A stretch of DNA of 59,759 nt, filler included. It is 7 parts of 7 records of this genome, joined end to end, with 100 filler letters (N's around TTAATTAATTAA, not from the genome) between each part and the next. Parts side by side here need not be neighbours in the genome. Positions count along the whole stretch, not along the records: positions 40,862 to 46,706 come from SRR31147125_49045; 6 more parts are not named here. The stretch is one strand, 5' to 3'. Each line of letters opens with the position of its first letter. Within the stretch, counting starts at the first letter, position 1. The translations under genes and the position numbers were made by a program. Positions 20,593 to 52,898 of the stretch are shown piece after piece. A model generated the notes under the pieces. The model saw nothing but the letters and a program-made list of their open reading frames with translations, was not told where the DNA came from and searched no databases.

Positions 20593-20692
20593 NNNNNNNN
20601 NNNNNNNNNNNNNNNNNNNNNNNNNNNNNNNNNNNNTTAATTAATTAANNNNNNNNNNNNNNNNNNNNNNNNNNNNNNNNNNNNNNNNNNNN
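20593..20692. other. Artificial contig spacer (44 N + TTAATTAATTAA + 44 N)
   Basis: The identical structure recurs six times. The 12-mer has stop codons in all six frames. Confidence 0.99.
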
Positions 20693-26121: not shown

Positions 26122-26221
26122 NNNNNNNNNNNNNNNNNNNNNNNNNNNNNNNNNNNNNNNNNNNNTTAATTAATTAANNNNNNNNNNNNNNNNNNNNNNN
26201 NNNNNNNNNNNNNNNNNNNNN
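26122..26221. other. Artificial contig spacer
   Basis: 44 N + TTAATTAATTAA + 44 N. Confidence 0.99.
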
Positions 26222-32924: not shown

Positions 32925-33024
32925 NNNNNNNNNNNNNNNNNNNNNNNNNNNNNNNNNNNNNNNNNNNNTTAATTAATTAANNNNNNNNNNNNNNNNNNNN
33001 NNNNNNNNNNNNNNNNNNNNNNNN
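32925..33024. other. Artificial contig spacer
   Basis: 44 N + TTAATTAATTAA + 44 N. Confidence 0.99.
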
Positions 33025-40761: not shown

Positions 40762-40861
40762 NNNNNNNNNNNNNNNNNNNNNNNNNNNNNNNNNNNNNNN
40801 NNNNNTTAATTAATTAANNNNNNNNNNNNNNNNNNNNNNNNNNNNNNNNNNNNNNNNNNNN
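40762..40861. other. Artificial contig spacer
   Basis: 44 N + TTAATTAATTAA + 44 N. Confidence 0.99.
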
Positions 40862-40875
40862 GAGGTCTGAGCAAA

Positions 40876-42657
40876 GTGCTTAAAACCAAATGGAATTTTT
40901 CAAAAGAAAACTCAAAAAGGCTGGGAATCGTCTTTGGGTCGAATCTGGCTTCCAATATTCTTCCCGGAATATCTTATATTTTTCTTTTCCTGATCGTCAT
41001 GCAGCTTGCGGTGCCTGTTTTATCCGGACAGCAGATTAGCTATATGTCGTTATGGAAATACTGTATCGTGTATGCAGTCGTATTTTTACTCTACATCCTG
41101 CTCTCAATGTGGAGTCAGACAAAAACCAATATGGAAGCCTACAGCATGTCATCGAAACTGCGGATGACGATGGGCGACAAGCTTAGGCGCCTGTCTTTAA
41201 GCTATTTCAAAAAGAATGACCCCGGTGATATTGCTGCAAGATTATTAAGCGATGTTCAAAAGGCTGAAACGATTTTTGCCCGTATTCTGCCCGATACGAC
41301 TACGGCGTTAATCGCGCCTTTGATCTTAATTATAGTATTGGCTACAATTAATACAGTCTTGGCCGGAATCATCCTTTTATCCATTATTTTTGCGGGTGTT
41401 TTCCTGTTCATCGCGCGGAAAACGGTAAGCGTCCTTGGACGGAAGCATGTAAAGACGGTTGTTGAAACATCCTCCCGTATTCTGGAGTATTTTAAAACCA
41501 TCAAGCTCTTAAAATCCTACGATCTGATCGGCGAGCGCTTTGAGACGATGAATGAAGCCATGCTGCGTCTTAAGAAAATTAGCTTTCGGACTGAAATCTG
41601 GGCTACAATTCCCATACAGGTTTTTCTTTTCTGCTTTGACGCGGGTTATTTAGTCGCACTTTTTGCAGCAGTAAAAATGTGCGCGGCCGGAAGCCTGCCC
41701 GTCCATGATCTATTTTCCTTTGCCTTTATCGGTTACTATCTGTTTGAAACGGTAAAATCTCTGGGACCCCAGCTTGTGGAGCTGAAATATGTTTCTCTGT
41801 CCACAAAGCGCATCGGAGAAATATTCGAAGCCGAGGAACCGCCATATAACGAGCTGAATGAGCCGCCGGAAACTAACAATATTACCTTTAATAATGTCAG
41901 CTTCAGCTATGGCGACAGTGACGTTTTAAATGGTGTAAGCTGCGAAATACCTGAGAAATCCATGACCGCACTGGTTGGTATGTCCGGCTCAGGAAAAACG
42001 ACCATGACAAGCCTGATTGCGCGGTTCTGGGATGTTCAGTCAGGCGAGATACGGCTGGGCGGTATTCCGCTTAAAGAAATTGATCCCGACAAACTGCTGT
42101 CCAAGCTCTCAATGGTCTTTCAGGATGTTTATCTGTTTAATGATACCGTTGCCAAAAACATTGGAATCGGTAAAAAAGGGGCGGGCATGGTTGAAATAAC
42201 AAAAGCCGCAAAGCTTGCCTGCTGTGATGATTTCATCAAAGCGCTCCCCGACGGATATGATACTCTTATTAGCGAGGGCGGAAATTCATTATCCGGCGGT
42301 GAAAAACAGCGGATATCGATCGCCCGAGCTATTTTGAAGGATGCGCCGATTGTGATCCTTGACGAAGCGACAGCATCGCTTGATCCCGAAAATGAAGCGG
42401 TAATCCAGAAGGCGTTTGAAAATCTGGTCAAAGAAAAAACGGTTATAGTAATAGCCCATCAGTTCAAATCAATAGTGCAAGCGGACAACATTCTTGTCTT
42501 AGATAAAGGATACATAGCTGAACAAGGAACACACGAAGAATTAATCAATTCAAACGGCCTGTATTCCAAGCTGTGGAAGCAGCAGCAGAAAGCCAGAGGC
42601 TGGAAGATGACATTATCAGATCATAGCGGAAAAAGGAATAACGATGACGAATACTAA
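40876..42657 (+). CDS. Type IV ABC half-transporter (TMD+NBD), IrtA/B-YbtP/Q-like
   Basis: N-terminal TMD with LRMTMGDKLRRLSLSYF. GMSGSGKTT, ARFWDV, SMVFQDVYLF, LSGGEKQRISIARA, LDEATASLDPENE, C-terminal QQKARGW. GAGGT RBS before the GTG start. Confidence 0.88.
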   Translation: MLKTKWNFSKENSKRLGIVFGSNLASNILPGISYIFLFLIVMQLAVPVLSGQQISYMSLWKYCIVYAVVFLLYILLSMWSQTKTNMEAYSMSSKLRMTMGDKLRRLSLSYFKKNDPGDIAARLLSDVQKAETIFARILPDTTTALIAPLILIIVLATINTVLAGIILLSIIFAGVFLFIARKTVSVLGRKHVKTVVETSSRILEYFKTIKLLKSYDLIGERFETMNEAMLRLKKISFRTEIWATIPIQVFLFCFDAGYLVALFAAVKMCAAGSLPVHDLFSFAFIGYYLFETVKSLGPQLVELKYVSLSTKRIGEIFEAEEPPYNELNEPPETNNITFNNVSFSYGDSDVLNGVSCEIPEKSMTALVGMSGSGKTTMTSLIARFWDVQSGEIRLGGIPLKEIDPDKLLSKLSMVFQDVYLFNDTVAKNIGIGKKGAGMVEITKAAKLACCDDFIKALPDGYDTLISEGGNSLSGGEKQRISIARAILKDAPIVILDEATASLDPENEAVIQKAFENLVKEKTVIVIAHQFKSIVQADNILVLDKGYIAEQGTHEELINSNGLYSKLWKQQQKARGWKMTLSDHSGKRNNDDEY

Positions 42658-43403
42658 TATCTTGGAAATCAAAGACCTTTGCGTCAAGGCGGGCGATAAG
42701 ACCGTGCTCAATCATTTAGAGCTTACAATTCCCGCCGCATGAGGTGCACGCTTTATTAGGGCAAAACGGCAGCGGCAAAACCTCGCTAATGATGACGGTT
42801 ATGGGCTTCTCGGGTTATGAGGTTATGCATGGCCAGATCCTTTTTAAGGGACAGAACATCACGGAATTAGACGTCTGTGAGCGAGCACGTCTTGGACTCG
42901 CCATCGCCCAGCAGCGCCCGCCTACAATAGACGGTGTATCACTGCGAAGCATTCTGGTTTATACACTGCGTAATGAGCATAATCCTGAGGAAAAGCTAGC
43001 CGAGCTCGCAAGAATCGCACAGATGGAACCGTTTTTAGATCGCAGCATCAACGACGGGCTGTCCGGCGGTGAGATCAAGCGCGCTGAATTATTGCAGCTT
43101 TTGTCAATGTCACCCGCGTTTTCCATGATGGATGAGCCCGACTCGGGCGTCGATATCGAAGCGCTAGCCCTTGTGGGCGGATTAATCAATAAATTGTTTT
43201 CCCCCGATGAAAAAAGGGCAGCTAAACGAAACGCGGGTCTTATCATCACACACAGCGGTAATATCCTGAAATACCTGAATATTGATAAGGCACACGTCAT
43301 GCACGAAGGCGGCATCGGTTGCTCGGGAAATCCCGCATTAATAATGGATCATATTAGCAAATGTGGATACGAGGACTGTATCCGGTGCATGGGAATGAGG
43401 TAA
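42644..43403 (+). CDS. sufC: SufC-like Fe-S assembly ATPase (SmsC type), one-base indel near 42738
   Basis: Manual N-terminus from ATG 42644, MTNTNILEIKDLCVKAGDKTVLNHLELTIP, joins EVHALLGQNGSGKT. LSGGEIKRAELLQ, DEPDSGVD, IITHSG, C-terminal CSGNP...CGYEDCIRC. Confidence 0.85.
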
Positions 43404-43408
43404 ATCCG

Positions 43409-44587
43409 ATGAAACATCCTGATAACAACGCTAAAATCCGAGGCACTATCCTCAATGAAGAATTTCCCTCAGATTATAATAACCAGCTTGAAAATGAGGA
43501 TACAAAAACACTGTCTGAGGTGGGCGTTATACTAGACAGCAAAAGTCGTTCTGCCACGATGGTCTTGCGCGATCATGAGCCGGTATGCCTGATAAATAAT
43601 AACCAAGACTTTGAGCTGCTGTCCATCTCCGCGGCGCTCAAACGCTACGGCTGGCTGGGCGAAAAATACGCTTTCAAGGCGGTACCGCCGGATTTTGACG
43701 AAGTGACCGAAAAATGCGCCGCCCAGGAAAAACCGCTTGGTTTTTTCATCCATGTAAAAAAAGGGGCCAAGGTGACACTTCCCTGCCAGACGGCAATGGT
43801 TATGGCAAGCAACAACCTTACCCAGGCAGTGCATAACATCGTGATTCTGGAGGAGGATTCACAGCTGGAGCTCATTACCGGCTGTGTGTCGGAGCACAGT
43901 ATCAACGAAGGGACACACCTTGCGGTTGAGGAGTATTATATCGGTAAAAACGCAAAGCTCGTCAGTACGATGGTACACTCGTGGGGGGCTGAGGTAACGG
44001 TCCATCCCCGCACCGGCGCTGTTGTAGCGGAAAACGGGCGTTTTGAAAGCAACTATATCTCGCTCCGTGCCGCCAAGCAGGTAAAGAGCGATCCACATAC
44101 CTACCTCAACGGCAAGGGGGCGTCCGCTAAATATCTTACCGTAGTGCTGGGTACGCCGGGATCCGCGATTGATACTGCGGGAAACGTATACCTCAACGCG
44201 GAGGATACAAGTGCCGAGCTTGTACACCGTGCCGTTTGCACCGGCGGGATCATGCATCAAGGCGGATTGCTTATCGGAAAAGCTCCGTGCAAAGCCCATG
44301 TGGACTGCGCAGCCATGTTGCTTGATGATACGGGAAAAGGGTTTGTTGAATCGGTGCCGGGGCTCAGATCACATCACCCGGATGCCCGTATGAGCCATGA
44401 GGCGAGCATCGGCAAAATCGCGCCGGAACAGGTGGAATACCTAATGTCACGCGGCATGCAGGAATCTGAAGCGATCTCCATGCTTATCCGTGGCTTTTTA
44501 GGCGCGGACATTGTGGGACTCGGCCCTGAGCTTGATGCACAGATTGCCGAGATCGCAGAAGTAGCCGGGCACGGAGAAGAGCAATAA
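43409..44587 (+). CDS. sufB: SufB/SufD-family Fe-S scaffold (SmsB type)
   Basis: QAVHNIVILEE, ITGC, MVHSWG, AHVDC, SHEASIGKIAPEQVEYLMSRG...IRGFL. RBS GAGGT before ATG 43409. Confidence 0.85.
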   Translation: MKHPDNNAKIRGTILNEEFPSDYNNQLENEDTKTLSEVGVILDSKSRSATMVLRDHEPVCLINNNQDFELLSISAALKRYGWLGEKYAFKAVPPDFDEVTEKCAAQEKPLGFFIHVKKGAKVTLPCQTAMVMASNNLTQAVHNIVILEEDSQLELITGCVSEHSINEGTHLAVEEYYIGKNAKLVSTMVHSWGAEVTVHPRTGAVVAENGRFESNYISLRAAKQVKSDPHTYLNGKGASAKYLTVVLGTPGSAIDTAGNVYLNAEDTSAELVHRAVCTGGIMHQGGLLIGKAPCKAHVDCAAMLLDDTGKGFVESVPGLRSHHPDARMSHEASIGKIAPEQVEYLMSRGMQESEAISMLIRGFLGADIVGLGPELDAQIAEIAEVAGHGEEQ

Positions 44588-44698
44588 ATCAGGTGAGCTA
44601 CAAATCAGAAAGGTCAATTTAAGTGAAAACCTGATGGCATGGTTGCAATCTCTTTAATCAACATTGTAAGGATTATATTATGGCAACAAGTATTCACC

Positions 44699-44734
44699 GC
44701 GGACGGCTACATTCAGCCGCCCGCTTTTCTCTTT
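44699..44734 (+). terminator. Probable intrinsic terminator after the SufC/SufB pair
   Basis: GCGGACGGCT / AGCCGCCCGC stem (one mismatch) followed by TTTTCTCTTT. Confidence 0.6.
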
Positions 44735-44951
44735 CCACTATTACTTACTTTTCATTTGGCTTGTTATGGATAGCTTTCGAAAAAAGCCCGGTGAAACGCT
44801 GGATTCGTGACGGATATAGGCGGCTCGGTTCATTTCCGCCTTTCATTTGGGGCAGAATAATGGTAAAATAATACTGGTTTTTGCTCTGAAGCACTAGATG
44901 TTTTTTTGAGTTCATTTATAAAGAGATTTTTTTGTAAATTAGGAGGACCTC

Positions 44952-46643
44952 ATGAAAAGACGCATAGTTGGTTTTTTGATCGTAATAATCTTGCTGATAA
45001 ATAGTATTCCGGCTGTTGCCGCTGATACAGATTATTCAGATGTGCCGTCAGACCACTGGGCGGCAGAATACATAAATAATGCCACACAGCTGGGTTTAAT
45101 AAACGGGATTGGAGACGGGCTTTTTGGAACGGGGCAAAATGTGACAAGAGCTCAATTTGCCGCTATGCTTGTGAGGCTTTTTGGCTGGGAAGCAGTAAAT
45201 CCAGACACGCCTAGTTTTTCTGATAACCAAGATACAAGCATGTGGTATTATTCAGCGATAGAAACCGCTGTCGCCAACGGAGCAGTTTTAACAGACAGCT
45301 CAACTTTCTTGCCGAACGATAGCATAACGCGGGAAGATATGGCCATTATGTTGGTGCGTGCTCTTGGCTATGATACGCTGGCCTCTGGTGTGGCAGATTA
45401 TGAAGTACCTTTTACGGATGTGACTGAGAATATCGGATATATCACAATTGCATACAATTTTGGAATTATTACCGGGATGACTGACACCACATTTGAGCCT
45501 GGTGGTTTCGCAACAAGAGAGCAGGCTGCTGCAATGATGATACGCCTTTATGATAAATACAGCGCACAAACCGACTGGCTCCATGCATTCTATGCGATAT
45601 CCTCGTTTTCTCAATCCAGTAGTATTTCTAGTTTGGATGCGCTTTCATTCGGCTGGAGCAAGCTCCAATATACAGAGGAAGACGGTGTCTTTCTGAACAC
45701 GACCACGTCTGACGAAAATGAATTTCACATTCCGACAGGCTACAGCTCACCGGTACATATTGCTCAAGGCAGTAATGTCCCGGCGAACCTAAACATTTAC
45801 ATGAGTACATCTCAGTCAGTAACTAAATCAGACGGAACGGTCTCAGATGCCTGTCGGGAAGTGTTGTTGAGTCCTGATAATCGTTCCGACGCAATTTCTC
45901 AGATTATTTCGTTGCTGCAAAGCAATTCTTTTCTATCGGGCGTTACCATAGATTTTGAAGGTATGAGCGGCGAAGACCTGAAGACGGGTTTGACCATGTT
46001 CTTGGAAGACCTGCGATCAGCTATGGAAGGCATGGAAAAAACGATTTATGTCTGTGTCCCTCCGGTTACATCCGACGGCCAGTACTATGACGCCTATGAC
46101 TACAAGGCTATCGGGGAGTACAGTGATAAGGTCATATTGATGGCGCATGATTATCAGGCGACCAGTATGTCTTCCGAGCTGATGGAAGCAGGATTTACCA
46201 TAACGCCACTTACCCCAATATATGAAGTGTATTATGCGTTGAAAGCGGTTACCGACTCGGATACCGGCGTACAGGACACCAGCAAGGTTGCGCTGGCAAT
46301 CAGTTTCAATACCGAGCAGTGGCAGTTGCAGGATGGCAAAGTTATCAACTCAACGCCTTTCCATCCCGATACTTCAAGCGTTTACAGCCGACTCACCGAT
46401 ACAGGCACAACGCTCAACTACTCGAAGCAATATGAAAACCCTTATCTGACGTTTTATAACGACAGTGATGATACTCAAAATGTGCTCTGGTATGAGGATG
46501 AACGCAGTATAGCGGCAAAAATTGAATTGGCGCGTATGTTTGGGGTTGACGGCATTTCTGTCTGGCGCCTTGGAATAATTCCGGATTATGACGATCTGGG
46601 TATTAACTACAATGTATTAGAGTTGCTTACGAGCAAACGATAA
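44952..46643 (+). CDS. S-layer homology (3x SLH) + GH18 glycoside hydrolase
   Basis: Signal peptide. SLH motifs YSDVPSDHWA...VTRAQFA, ITREDMA, ATREQAA. GH18 GVTIDFE, LMAHDY, WYEDERSIAAKI, GISVWRLG. Confidence 0.9.
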   Translation: MKRRIVGFLIVIILLINSIPAVAADTDYSDVPSDHWAAEYINNATQLGLINGIGDGLFGTGQNVTRAQFAAMLVRLFGWEAVNPDTPSFSDNQDTSMWYYSAIETAVANGAVLTDSSTFLPNDSITREDMAIMLVRALGYDTLASGVADYEVPFTDVTENIGYITIAYNFGIITGMTDTTFEPGGFATREQAAAMMIRLYDKYSAQTDWLHAFYAISSFSQSSSISSLDALSFGWSKLQYTEEDGVFLNTTTSDENEFHIPTGYSSPVHIAQGSNVPANLNIYMSTSQSVTKSDGTVSDACREVLLSPDNRSDAISQIISLLQSNSFLSGVTIDFEGMSGEDLKTGLTMFLEDLRSAMEGMEKTIYVCVPPVTSDGQYYDAYDYKAIGEYSDKVILMAHDYQATSMSSELMEAGFTITPLTPIYEVYYALKAVTDSDTGVQDTSKVALAISFNTEQWQLQDGKVINSTPFHPDTSSVYSRLTDTGTTLNYSKQYENPYLTFYNDSDDTQNVLWYEDERSIAAKIELARMFGVDGISVWRLGIIPDYDDLGINYNVLELLTSKR

Positions 46644-46706
46644 ATTCCACTAATGTTTACAAGGTGTTAAATCTTGGGGTATTTTTTATCCCACTTTTCC
46701 GAAAAC

Positions 46707-46806
46707 NNNNNNNNNNNNNNNNNNNNNNNNNNNNNNNNNNNNNNNNNNNNTTAATTAATTAANNNNNNNNNNNNNNNNNNNNNNNNNNNNNNNNNNNNNN
46801 NNNNNN
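46707..46806. other. Artificial contig spacer
   Basis: 44 N + TTAATTAATTAA + 44 N. Confidence 0.99.
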
Positions 46807-52798: not shown

Positions 52799-52898
52799 NN
52801 NNNNNNNNNNNNNNNNNNNNNNNNNNNNNNNNNNNNNNNNNNTTAATTAATTAANNNNNNNNNNNNNNNNNNNNNNNNNNNNNNNNNNNNNNNNNNNN
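52799..52898. other. Artificial contig spacer
   Basis: 44 N + TTAATTAATTAA + 44 N. Confidence 0.99.

What the first reader, a model, noticed from the sequence alone, without database searches (positions are those of the whole stretch)
40876..44587. IrtAB/YbtPQ-like ABC half-transporter translationally coupled to a minimal SufC-SufB (SmsCB-type) Fe-S scaffold
Seen: the ABC gene stop (42657) overlaps the SufC start (42644), SufB starts 5 nt after the SufC stop, and a terminator follows near 44700, so the three genes look like one operon. No sufS, sufU, sufD or sufE follows. Established: IrtAB and YbtPQ are exporter-fold ABC proteins that import iron chelates, and two-gene SufC+SufB-like systems (SMS) are minimal Fe-S scaffolds of anaerobes and archaea. 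Inference: this may be a dedicated module passing imported iron or a metal chelate directly to an accessory Fe-S scaffold in a clostridial anaerobe. I do not recognise this as a characterised system.
Basis: partly seen in the sequence, partly recalled or inferred. Interest (0 to 1): 0.72.

Follow-up and report, generated by a model that had tools for sequence, protein, structure and literature searches.

The report
Iron-repressed minimal Fe-S scaffold operon
This is the tail of a bacterial operon in which an ABC transporter related to iron-chelate importers is followed by a two-gene iron-sulfur cluster builder, and relatives suggest the genes sit together because both are likely switched on by iron shortage, not because iron is handed directly from one to the other.

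Summary
The three genes are real and form the 3' end of an operon on a 5.8-kb contig (40862-46706). The transporter is the second half of a YbtP/YbtQ-type pair; the contig starts on the partner's last codons. SmsB is the long-tailed, archaeal-type (Group 1) form, and SmsC keeps the C-terminal CxxC. The same gene order is seen in 2 of 27 close-clade loci, but the gene overlap is not kept. Elsewhere this smsCB clade sits beside CydDC-like pairs, Feo, ECF or nothing. What recurs is iron control. Ten of 27 loci have a Fur box or the EqbA (DtxR-family) operator at the smsC promoter or operon head. In one genome all 11 perfect EqbA sites lie at the feoB genes or in the smsCB island. In another the transporter is deleted while the Fur-box promoter and smsCB remain. 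Best reading: an accessory SMS scaffold in an iron-starvation regulon, co-regulated with uptake genes rather than physically coupled. Import direction is unproven. New variant of known systems; moderate interest.

The parts
40862..40870 (+). Last codons and stop of the upstream partner half-transporter (YbtP/IrtA-type), cut off by the contig edge
   Evidence: blastn against L002 runs from the fragment's first base to L002:7313 (75% over 3718 window bases), where the partner ends with the same stop, 5-nt spacer and start layout; inference from synteny
40876..42657 (+). Type IV ABC half-transporter, second (YbtQ/IrtB-position) subunit, with canonical Walker A, signature, Walker B and H-loop
   Evidence: Pfam; best single-NBD PDB hit YbtQ, 289 bits full length and 257 bits NBD; tree; motifs; start matches orthologues
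42644..43403 (+). smsC (SufC-like ATPase), broken in this assembly by a +1 frameshift near 42740
   Evidence: one contig of X1 lacks a base at 42740
43320..43388 (+). Cys-rich C-terminus of SmsC (GCSG ... CxxC), predicted [4Fe-4S] site
   Evidence: alignment A4, first Cys of CxxC invariant in 15 of 15 rows; PMC12192291 sections 8 and 12
43409..44587 (+). smsB, Group 1 (long C-terminal helix) SufB-like scaffold subunit with the essential Cys300, His330 and Glu331
   Evidence: best PDB hit 4DN7 266 bits vs MJ0034 74 bits; alignment A6; group definition in bioRxiv 2024.03.20.586028 passages
44699..44733 (+). Likely intrinsic terminator closing the operon

Best explanation
This is the 3' end of an operon encoding a YbtPQ/IrtAB-type ABC transporter subunit and a minimal SmsC-SmsB iron-sulfur scaffold, which are likely co-transcribed under an iron-sensing repressor so that metal uptake and a back-up cluster builder would switch on together when iron is short. 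Shown by sequence: gene order, families, intact NBD motifs, the SmsB Cys/His/Glu triad and the SmsC CxxC. Inferred from relatives: the missing upstream part resembles L002 (Fur box, fur, a 1334-aa BcrAD/DUF2229 Fe-S 'activase', methyltransferase, DtxR-family repressor, partner subunit). Inferred from published SMS work: SmsC2B2 would build a [4Fe-4S] cluster on the SmsC tail, from the cytosolic Fe2+ pool and sulfide or IscS-derived sulfur, and pass it to apo-proteins. It would run beside a resident IscSU/MIS system, as SUF backs up ISC under iron starvation in E. coli. Untested: that the transporter imports an iron chelate (likely, about 0.65), and that the smsC frameshift is an assembly error (about 0.8). 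The link between transporter and scaffold is regulatory, through the shared iron pool, not a direct hand-over.
For: Of 27 distinct close-clade smsCB loci (52-82% SmsB identity: L001-L024, L052, L064, L065; 25 genomes), 10 have an iron-repressor operator at the smsC promoter or operon head. EqbA-type palindrome: L003, L004, L009, L010 perfect, L008 one mismatch. Fur-type box: L013, L065, L052, L064, and L002 via L066. The palindrome equals the core of the EMSA-tested EqbA operator (PMC3672683 passages). L004 has 5 perfect copies against 0.03 expected. Genome G003 has 11 perfect sites (reversed control 0): 8 lie in a 19-kb stretch around smsCB and 3 on the upstream side of its two feoB genes. 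Sixteen of 27 loci have some iron link (operator, fur/dtxR gene, Feo, YbtPQ- or CydDC-like pair): 14 of 17 outside Chloroflexota. None of 7 control loci of other SMS clades has one (L053-L059). In L052 only about 35 codons of the transporter remain between a Fur-box promoter and smsC. L064 has activase-fur-smsC-smsB without a transporter. An IscU/NifU domain is present in 8 of 9 host genomes and a second, short SmsB in 3 of 9. The partner subunit's membrane domain prefers YbtP (119.5 bits) and IrtA (89.8) over Sav1866 (48.7) and MsbA (33 or less). The tree groups both subunits with YbtP apart from MsbA, MdlAB and CydDC (support 1.0 full length, 0.986 membrane domain).
Against: The window's own promoter is off the contig, so its regulation is inferred; the fragment has no Fur or EqbA box. 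Eleven of 27 loci show no iron link (L001, L012, L014-L018, L020-L022, L024); only 2 of 10 Chloroflexota loci do. Loci are related, so counts are not independent, and both patterns were partly written from the boxes seen (L013, L065, the paper and the feoB sites are the independent checks). Only 183 of 343 ORFs of L001-L024 were scanned in Pfam. The membrane domain of the window protein shows no preference for importers (TM288 83.9, YbtP 81, Sav1866 78, YbtQ 75 bits). The partner has H-E-H where IrtA has H-H-H, the Glu replacing the essential H439, and the same H-E-H occurs in CydC-like proteins. EqbKL was not needed for iron import in S. equi. In M. voltae, SufBC did not change with perceived iron limitation (PMC8516115 passages). 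If the frameshift is real the scaffold is dead here.
Confidence: 0.65

Rival explanations
1. Dedicated channel: the importer passes iron directly to SmsCB in one complex, with translational coupling fixing the ratio.
For: Gene order kept in L002 and as a remnant in L052. Orthologous transporter and SmsB records share identical longest-contig lengths in 7 of 35 transporter records, 4 of them on contigs under 22 kb (5315, 10512, 17967, 21692; indirect, and only part of the SmsB lists was seen).
Against: Overlap not conserved (63 and 24 nt gaps). 25 of 27 loci lack this transporter next to smsC. Partners are interchangeable. Separate transcription units with a shared operator in L004/L009. Transporter deleted in L052.
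Confidence: 0.08
2. Client-specific maturase: SmsCB serves mainly the co-encoded Fe-S enzyme (the BcrAD/DUF2229 'activase' found upstream in relatives), and the transporter moves that pathway's substrate or product.
For: The activase (68-71% identical between genomes) heads the smsCB operon in L002 and L064 and a split version in G407, always with fur and a divergent Crp gene.
Against: Only 2 of 27 loci hold activase and smsCB in one run; G003 and G004 carry the scaffold without a full-length activase orthologue; the activase is not on the window's contig.
Confidence: 0.15
3. The transporter exports (a chelator, heme, thiol or drug) under iron control; the scaffold is merely co-regulated.
For: Membrane domain ranks exporters level with importers; EqbKL possibly efflux; CydDC-like pairs take the same position in L006 and L007; no binding protein next to the pair in L002.
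Against: NBD, C-terminal motif, partner membrane domain and tree all point to the YbtP/Q branch; JGI names several orthologues IrtB (automatic names).
Confidence: 0.2
4. A decaying passenger: smsC is a true pseudogene here and the block is left-over cargo of a mobile iron island.
For: Frameshift in the assembly; patchy spread (close clade in 2 of 399, 1 of 61 and 4 of 201 genomes sampled); relaxase, integrase or recombinase genes near L001, L004, L005, L008.
Against: One contig lacks the extra base; depth is about 2-4; smsC and smsB otherwise keep all catalytic residues at about 82% identity to L002.
Confidence: 0.15

Closest known systems
SMS / SmsC2B2 minimal Fe-S system (M. jannaschii; M. 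mazei 4DN7; Group 1 SufB*C)
   Same: Two genes smsC-smsB, no sufD/S/E; SmsB Cys-His-Glu triad; SmsC Walker motifs and C-terminal CxxC; long SmsB tail as in Group 1.
   Different: Found in clostridia-like hosts beside IscU and sometimes a short Group 2 SmsB; placed behind Fur or EqbA operators and uptake genes. The third Cys sits at GCSG, with His at the M. jannaschii C218 position. I found no report of iron-repressed bacterial SMS in searches.
YbtPQ (Yersinia/E. coli) and IrtAB (mycobacteria), exporter-fold siderophore importers
   Same: Tandem half-transporters, two canonical ATP sites, closest NBD and partner membrane domain, shared C-terminal W motif.
   Different: About 31% identity to YbtQ; no siderophore-interaction domain on the 588-aa partner; H-E-H instead of HHH/HHD; no siderophore synthesis genes or receptor seen in L002; substrate unknown.
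Equibactin locus of Streptococcus equi (EqbA repressor, EqbHIJ ECF importer, EqbKL)
   Same: Same operator core, DtxR-family repressor with the iron-type Cys in L002 and L008, and YbtPQ-like pair plus ECF in L004, L009, L011.
   Different: No NRPS seen in these loci; an Fe-S scaffold is included instead.
E. coli suf operon as the iron-starvation back-up to ISC
   Same: Second scaffold under iron repression beside a housekeeping IscU system (role stated in PMC10500019 passages; Fur control recalled).
   Different: Six genes and oxygen tolerant versus two genes in anaerobes; here two unrelated repressors are used in different hosts.

Membership tests
SMS (SmsCB) | sufC-like and sufB-like genes adjacent with no sufD, sufS or sufE in the operon | tested here: met
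SMS (SmsCB) | No SufD elsewhere in the genome | not testable with these tools
   No genome held. In 9 relatives only SmsB-type SUFBD genes were found.
SMS (SmsCB) | SmsB Cys252/His279/Glu280 equivalents | tested here: met
   C300, H330, E331 invariant in 12 of 12 rows; residues from bioRxiv 2024.03.20.586028
SMS (SmsCB) | SmsC C-terminal Cys-rich region with CxxC | tested here: met
   CIRC plus GCSG Cys; the third ligand is not at the M. jannaschii C218 position
SMS (SmsCB) | NCBIfam SmsB model NF052511 cut-off | tested here: not met
   149 bits against a cut-off of 650; the model is of type 'exception' and narrow
SMS (SmsCB) | Intact smsC reading frame | tested here: inconclusive
   Frameshift in the window; one low-depth contig lacks it
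SMS (SmsCB) | C2B2 complex builds and transfers [4Fe-4S] | not testable with these tools
   needs biochemistry
YbtPQ/IrtAB importers | Tandem heterodimer of type IV half-transporters | tested here: met
   partner's last codons at 40862-40870; whole pair in L002
YbtPQ/IrtAB importers | Groups with YbtP/Q rather than MsbA, MdlAB or CydDC | tested here: met
   FastTree support 1.0 / 0.986. YbtQ, IrtA, IrtB, TM287/288 and Sav1866 were not in the tree; YbtQ compared later by alignment, 31% vs MsbA 26%.
YbtPQ/IrtAB importers | Membrane domain of this subunit closest to YbtQ/IrtB | tested here: inconclusive
   rank exporters and importers alike
YbtPQ/IrtAB importers | HHH/HHD metal triad on the first subunit | tested here: not met
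   H-E-H in the L002 partner (motif from PMC11779899). Still three possible metal ligands; the window's own partner is not available.
YbtPQ/IrtAB importers | Siderophore-interaction domain (IrtA only) | tested here: not met
   L002 partner is 588 aa with only membrane and NBD domains, as YbtP
YbtPQ/IrtAB importers | Imports an iron chelate | not testable with these tools
   needs transport assay
Fur / EqbA iron regulon | Operator over the promoter | tested here: inconclusive
   Promoter is off the window's contig; met in 10 of 27 related loci

The most novel reading that the evidence does not exclude
An anaerobe's complete import-release-assemble line. A YbtPQ-like pair brings in an iron chelate, the co-encoded ATP-driven [4Fe-4S] activase supplies low-potential electrons in place of IrtA's missing reductase domain to free Fe2+, and an archaeal-type SmsCB captures it. 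The ancient SMS system would thus have been redeployed, under two unrelated repressors, as the iron-starvation scaffold of clostridia.
Probability: 0.1. Interest if true: 0.8.

Novelty: new variant of a known kind. Interest (0 to 1): 0.48.

Why it matters
SMS is described as a relic for iron- and sulfide-rich anoxic life, and it is dispensable in M. acetivorans without a known reason (PMC10500019). A bacterial SMS clade that keeps turning up behind Fur or EqbA operators, beside a resident IscU system, gives a testable job: cluster assembly under iron shortage, the role SUF plays in E. coli, reached without oxygen stress. It also gives a candidate operon for finding what Firmicute YbtPQ-like pairs transport. 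The parts themselves are known families.

Tried and rejected
Translational coupling: rejected, overlap not conserved. Metagenome scans for the transporter's orthologues: the first found none; the second gave 16 loci of more distant relatives (27-48% in the membrane domain), none with smsCB in the DNA held, many of them short. Genome samples found the orthologue only in G001 (1 of 201; 1 of 401). No close SmsB on plasmids (82 records, all under 60%, best about 31%). No RNA holder listed. AlphaFold model poor (pLDDT 65, pTM 0.49) and its fold search uninformative. IQ-TREE run did not finish; FastTree used instead. No SmsB tree was built because scripts became unavailable. IdeR consensus (recalled) matched 0 of 72 loci; no shared operator seen in Chloroflexota promoters. 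No Rfam hit in the window. Earlier scan findings: nothing returned. Complex prediction not used, as the report does not claim binding. Rows dropped before the count of 27: L025 (31% identity), L063 (same locus as L013), L044, L045, L050, L051 (repeats of L002, L052, L020, L008).
Full report
Observation. The window is seven unrelated contigs joined by linkers, and the finding lies on fragment 40862-46706. It holds a 593-aa ABC half-transporter (40876-42657), smsC (42644-43403), smsB (43409-44587), a strong hairpin with U-tail at 44699-44733 and then an unrelated SLH-GH18 gene. The 14-nt overlap and the 5-nt gap are as described. One contig of run X1, depth 2.7, lacks one base there, though only 19 bases from its end, and X1 may be the source sample. 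All 24 of 24 close-clade loci have an open smsC. I take it as a likely assembly error.

The scaffold. SmsB is closest to M. mazei 4DN7 (266 bits) and far from M. jannaschii SmsB (74) and E. coli SufB (60). It keeps Cys300, His330 and Glu331, the three residues shown essential in bioRxiv 2024.03.20.586028 (passages). Its long C-terminus makes it Group 1, which that paper calls common in archaea; Group 2, with short tails, is the usual bacterial form. SmsC ends in GCSG...CIRC, matching the C-terminal cluster site of PMC12192291 (sections 4, 8, 12, 13 read) and PMC12584684 (passages), with the third Cys shifted. The clade is patchy: 2 of 399, 1 of 61 and 4 of 201 sampled genomes, each count including its centre genome. 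Genome G001 holds three copies. Eight of 9 host genomes also have an IscU/NifU domain and 3 of 9 a short SmsB, so it is usually a second system.

The transporter. It has canonical ATP motifs. Among single-NBD proteins YbtQ is the best PDB match. Its membrane domain alone does not discriminate importers from exporters, nor does a low-confidence model. The contig starts on the partner's last codons: the fragment aligns from its first base with L002 at 75% over 3718 bases. The L002 partner's membrane domain clearly prefers YbtP and IrtA. A FastTree of 56 proteins puts both subunits with YbtP, apart from MsbA, MdlAB and CydDC (YbtQ was absent because the fetched copy was broken, and 7 near-duplicate or partial rows were dropped). 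The IrtA HHH triad (PMC11779899, passages and section 12) reads H-E-H in the partner, as it also does in CydC-like proteins, so it is not diagnostic. In S. equi the related EqbKL pair was not needed for iron import and may export (PMC3672683, passages). Import is likely, not shown.

Is the pairing conserved? Among 27 distinct close-clade loci, the orthologous transporter lies directly before smsC in 2: L002 (intact, 63-nt gap) and L052 (last 35 codons only, 24-nt gap). Seven of 35 orthologue records share an exact contig length with an SmsB record, four on contigs under 22 kb, so within this transporter subfamily the link is probably old. Seen from the scaffold, partners vary: YbtPQ-like pairs in 6 of 27 loci, CydDC-like pairs in 4, Feo in 4, fur or dtxR genes in 7 (floors, since 183 of 343 ORFs of L001-L024 were scanned). 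The 16 more distant transporter loci have no smsCB in the DNA held.

What is constant is iron control. Aligning smsC upstream regions showed sigma-A-like promoters followed directly by a palindrome. In L003, L004, L009, L010 and L008 it is GTTAGA-N4-TCTAAC, the core of the operator that the DtxR-family repressor EqbA binds in an Fe2+-, Zn2+- and Mn2+-responsive way (PMC3672683). The DtxR-family proteins of L002 and L008 have the iron-type Cys. In L004 five perfect copies (0.03 expected) precede smsCB, the ECF/YbtPQ-like unit and the CydDC-like unit separately. Genome-wide, 8 of 11 perfect sites lie in this 19-kb island and 3 on the upstream side of the two feoB genes. In L013, L065 and L052 the palindrome is a Fur-type box (Fur consensus recalled). 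Fur-type boxes also head the operons of L002 and L064 (in L066 the count alone is not above chance, 12 of 200 shuffles). L064 runs activase-fur-smsC-smsB with no transporter. In G407 the transporter is reduced to a stub behind a Fur-box promoter, with smsCB kept. In all, 10 of 27 loci have an operator and 16 of 27 some iron link (14 of 17 outside Chloroflexota, 2 of 10 within). None of 7 control loci of other SMS clades has one. Eleven loci show no link, the loci are not independent, and the window's own promoter is missing.

Mechanism. Most likely (0.65): when iron falls, Fur or an EqbA-type repressor lets go, and the operon makes an exporter-fold transporter that probably imports a metal chelate, together with an SmsC2B2 scaffold that builds [4Fe-4S] on the SmsC tail from the cytosolic pool. 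Families and motifs are shown. Regulation is inferred from relatives. Cluster chemistry is inferred from archaeal SMS (also PMC12442378, abstract only). Transport direction is untested. Rivals: export (0.2), maturase for the co-encoded activase (0.15), true pseudogene (0.15), direct channel (0.08); these are not all exclusive.

Known context and novelty. All parts belong to known families. Ten literature searches listed no paper linking SMS to IrtAB/YbtPQ-like pairs or to Fur/EqbA control; two searches returned none at all. The library lacks most subscription papers, and I did not see Garcia et al. 2022 (cited in reference lists only), whose supplements may hold such contexts; no supplements were read. 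In M. voltae SufBC did not respond to perceived iron limitation (PMC8516115, passages), and in M. acetivorans it is dispensable (PMC10500019, passages). Verdict: a new regulatory variant of SMS, real but not a dedicated hand-over machine; interest 0.48.

Noticed in passing
window 20593-20692, 26122-26221, 32925-33024, 40762-40861, 46707-46806, 52799-52898: Six N44-TTAATTAATTAA-N44 linkers join seven contigs of 33-57% GC; neighbours across them are not real.
   Followed up: yes
window 44952-46643: Secreted protein with three SLH repeats and a GH18 domain, after the terminator.
   Followed up: no
L002:449-4453; L064:11981-15988; L068:1063-5145: A 1334-aa BcrAD_BadFG + DUF2229 'activase' with fur, a methyltransferase in two cases, Fur boxes and a divergent Crp gene heads smsCB operons; an iron-regulated role for this family was not found.
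   Followed up: partly
L002:11131-11203: c-di-GMP-I riboswitch directly after smsB.
   Followed up: no
L004:6218-11418, L009:6899-11402, G003:C1:3367602-3386585: An EqbA-type iron island without NRPS genes in the part read: ECF, YbtPQ-like pair, AraC, HD protein, methyltransferase, smsCB, CydDC-like pair and DUF454.
   Followed up: partly
L006:3962-7352, L004:11541-14926, L007:5739-9072: CydDC-like pairs in anaerobes within Fur/EqbA-controlled clusters, two with DUF454; possibly heme or thiol handling.
   Followed up: no
L005:12794-12973: Second, partial smsB piece downstream of the intact gene.
   Followed up: no
L012:11733-13108: FetAB-like pair (ABC ATPase + UPF0014) just downstream of smsB (FetAB name recalled).
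   Followed up: no
L027:4598-6357: ybtQ reads only 205 aa from its start in this plasmid record, so it looks frameshifted there.
   Followed up: no
run X1 on window 42400-42612: Several other contigs in the same run carry close relatives of the transporter's 3' end.
   Followed up: no
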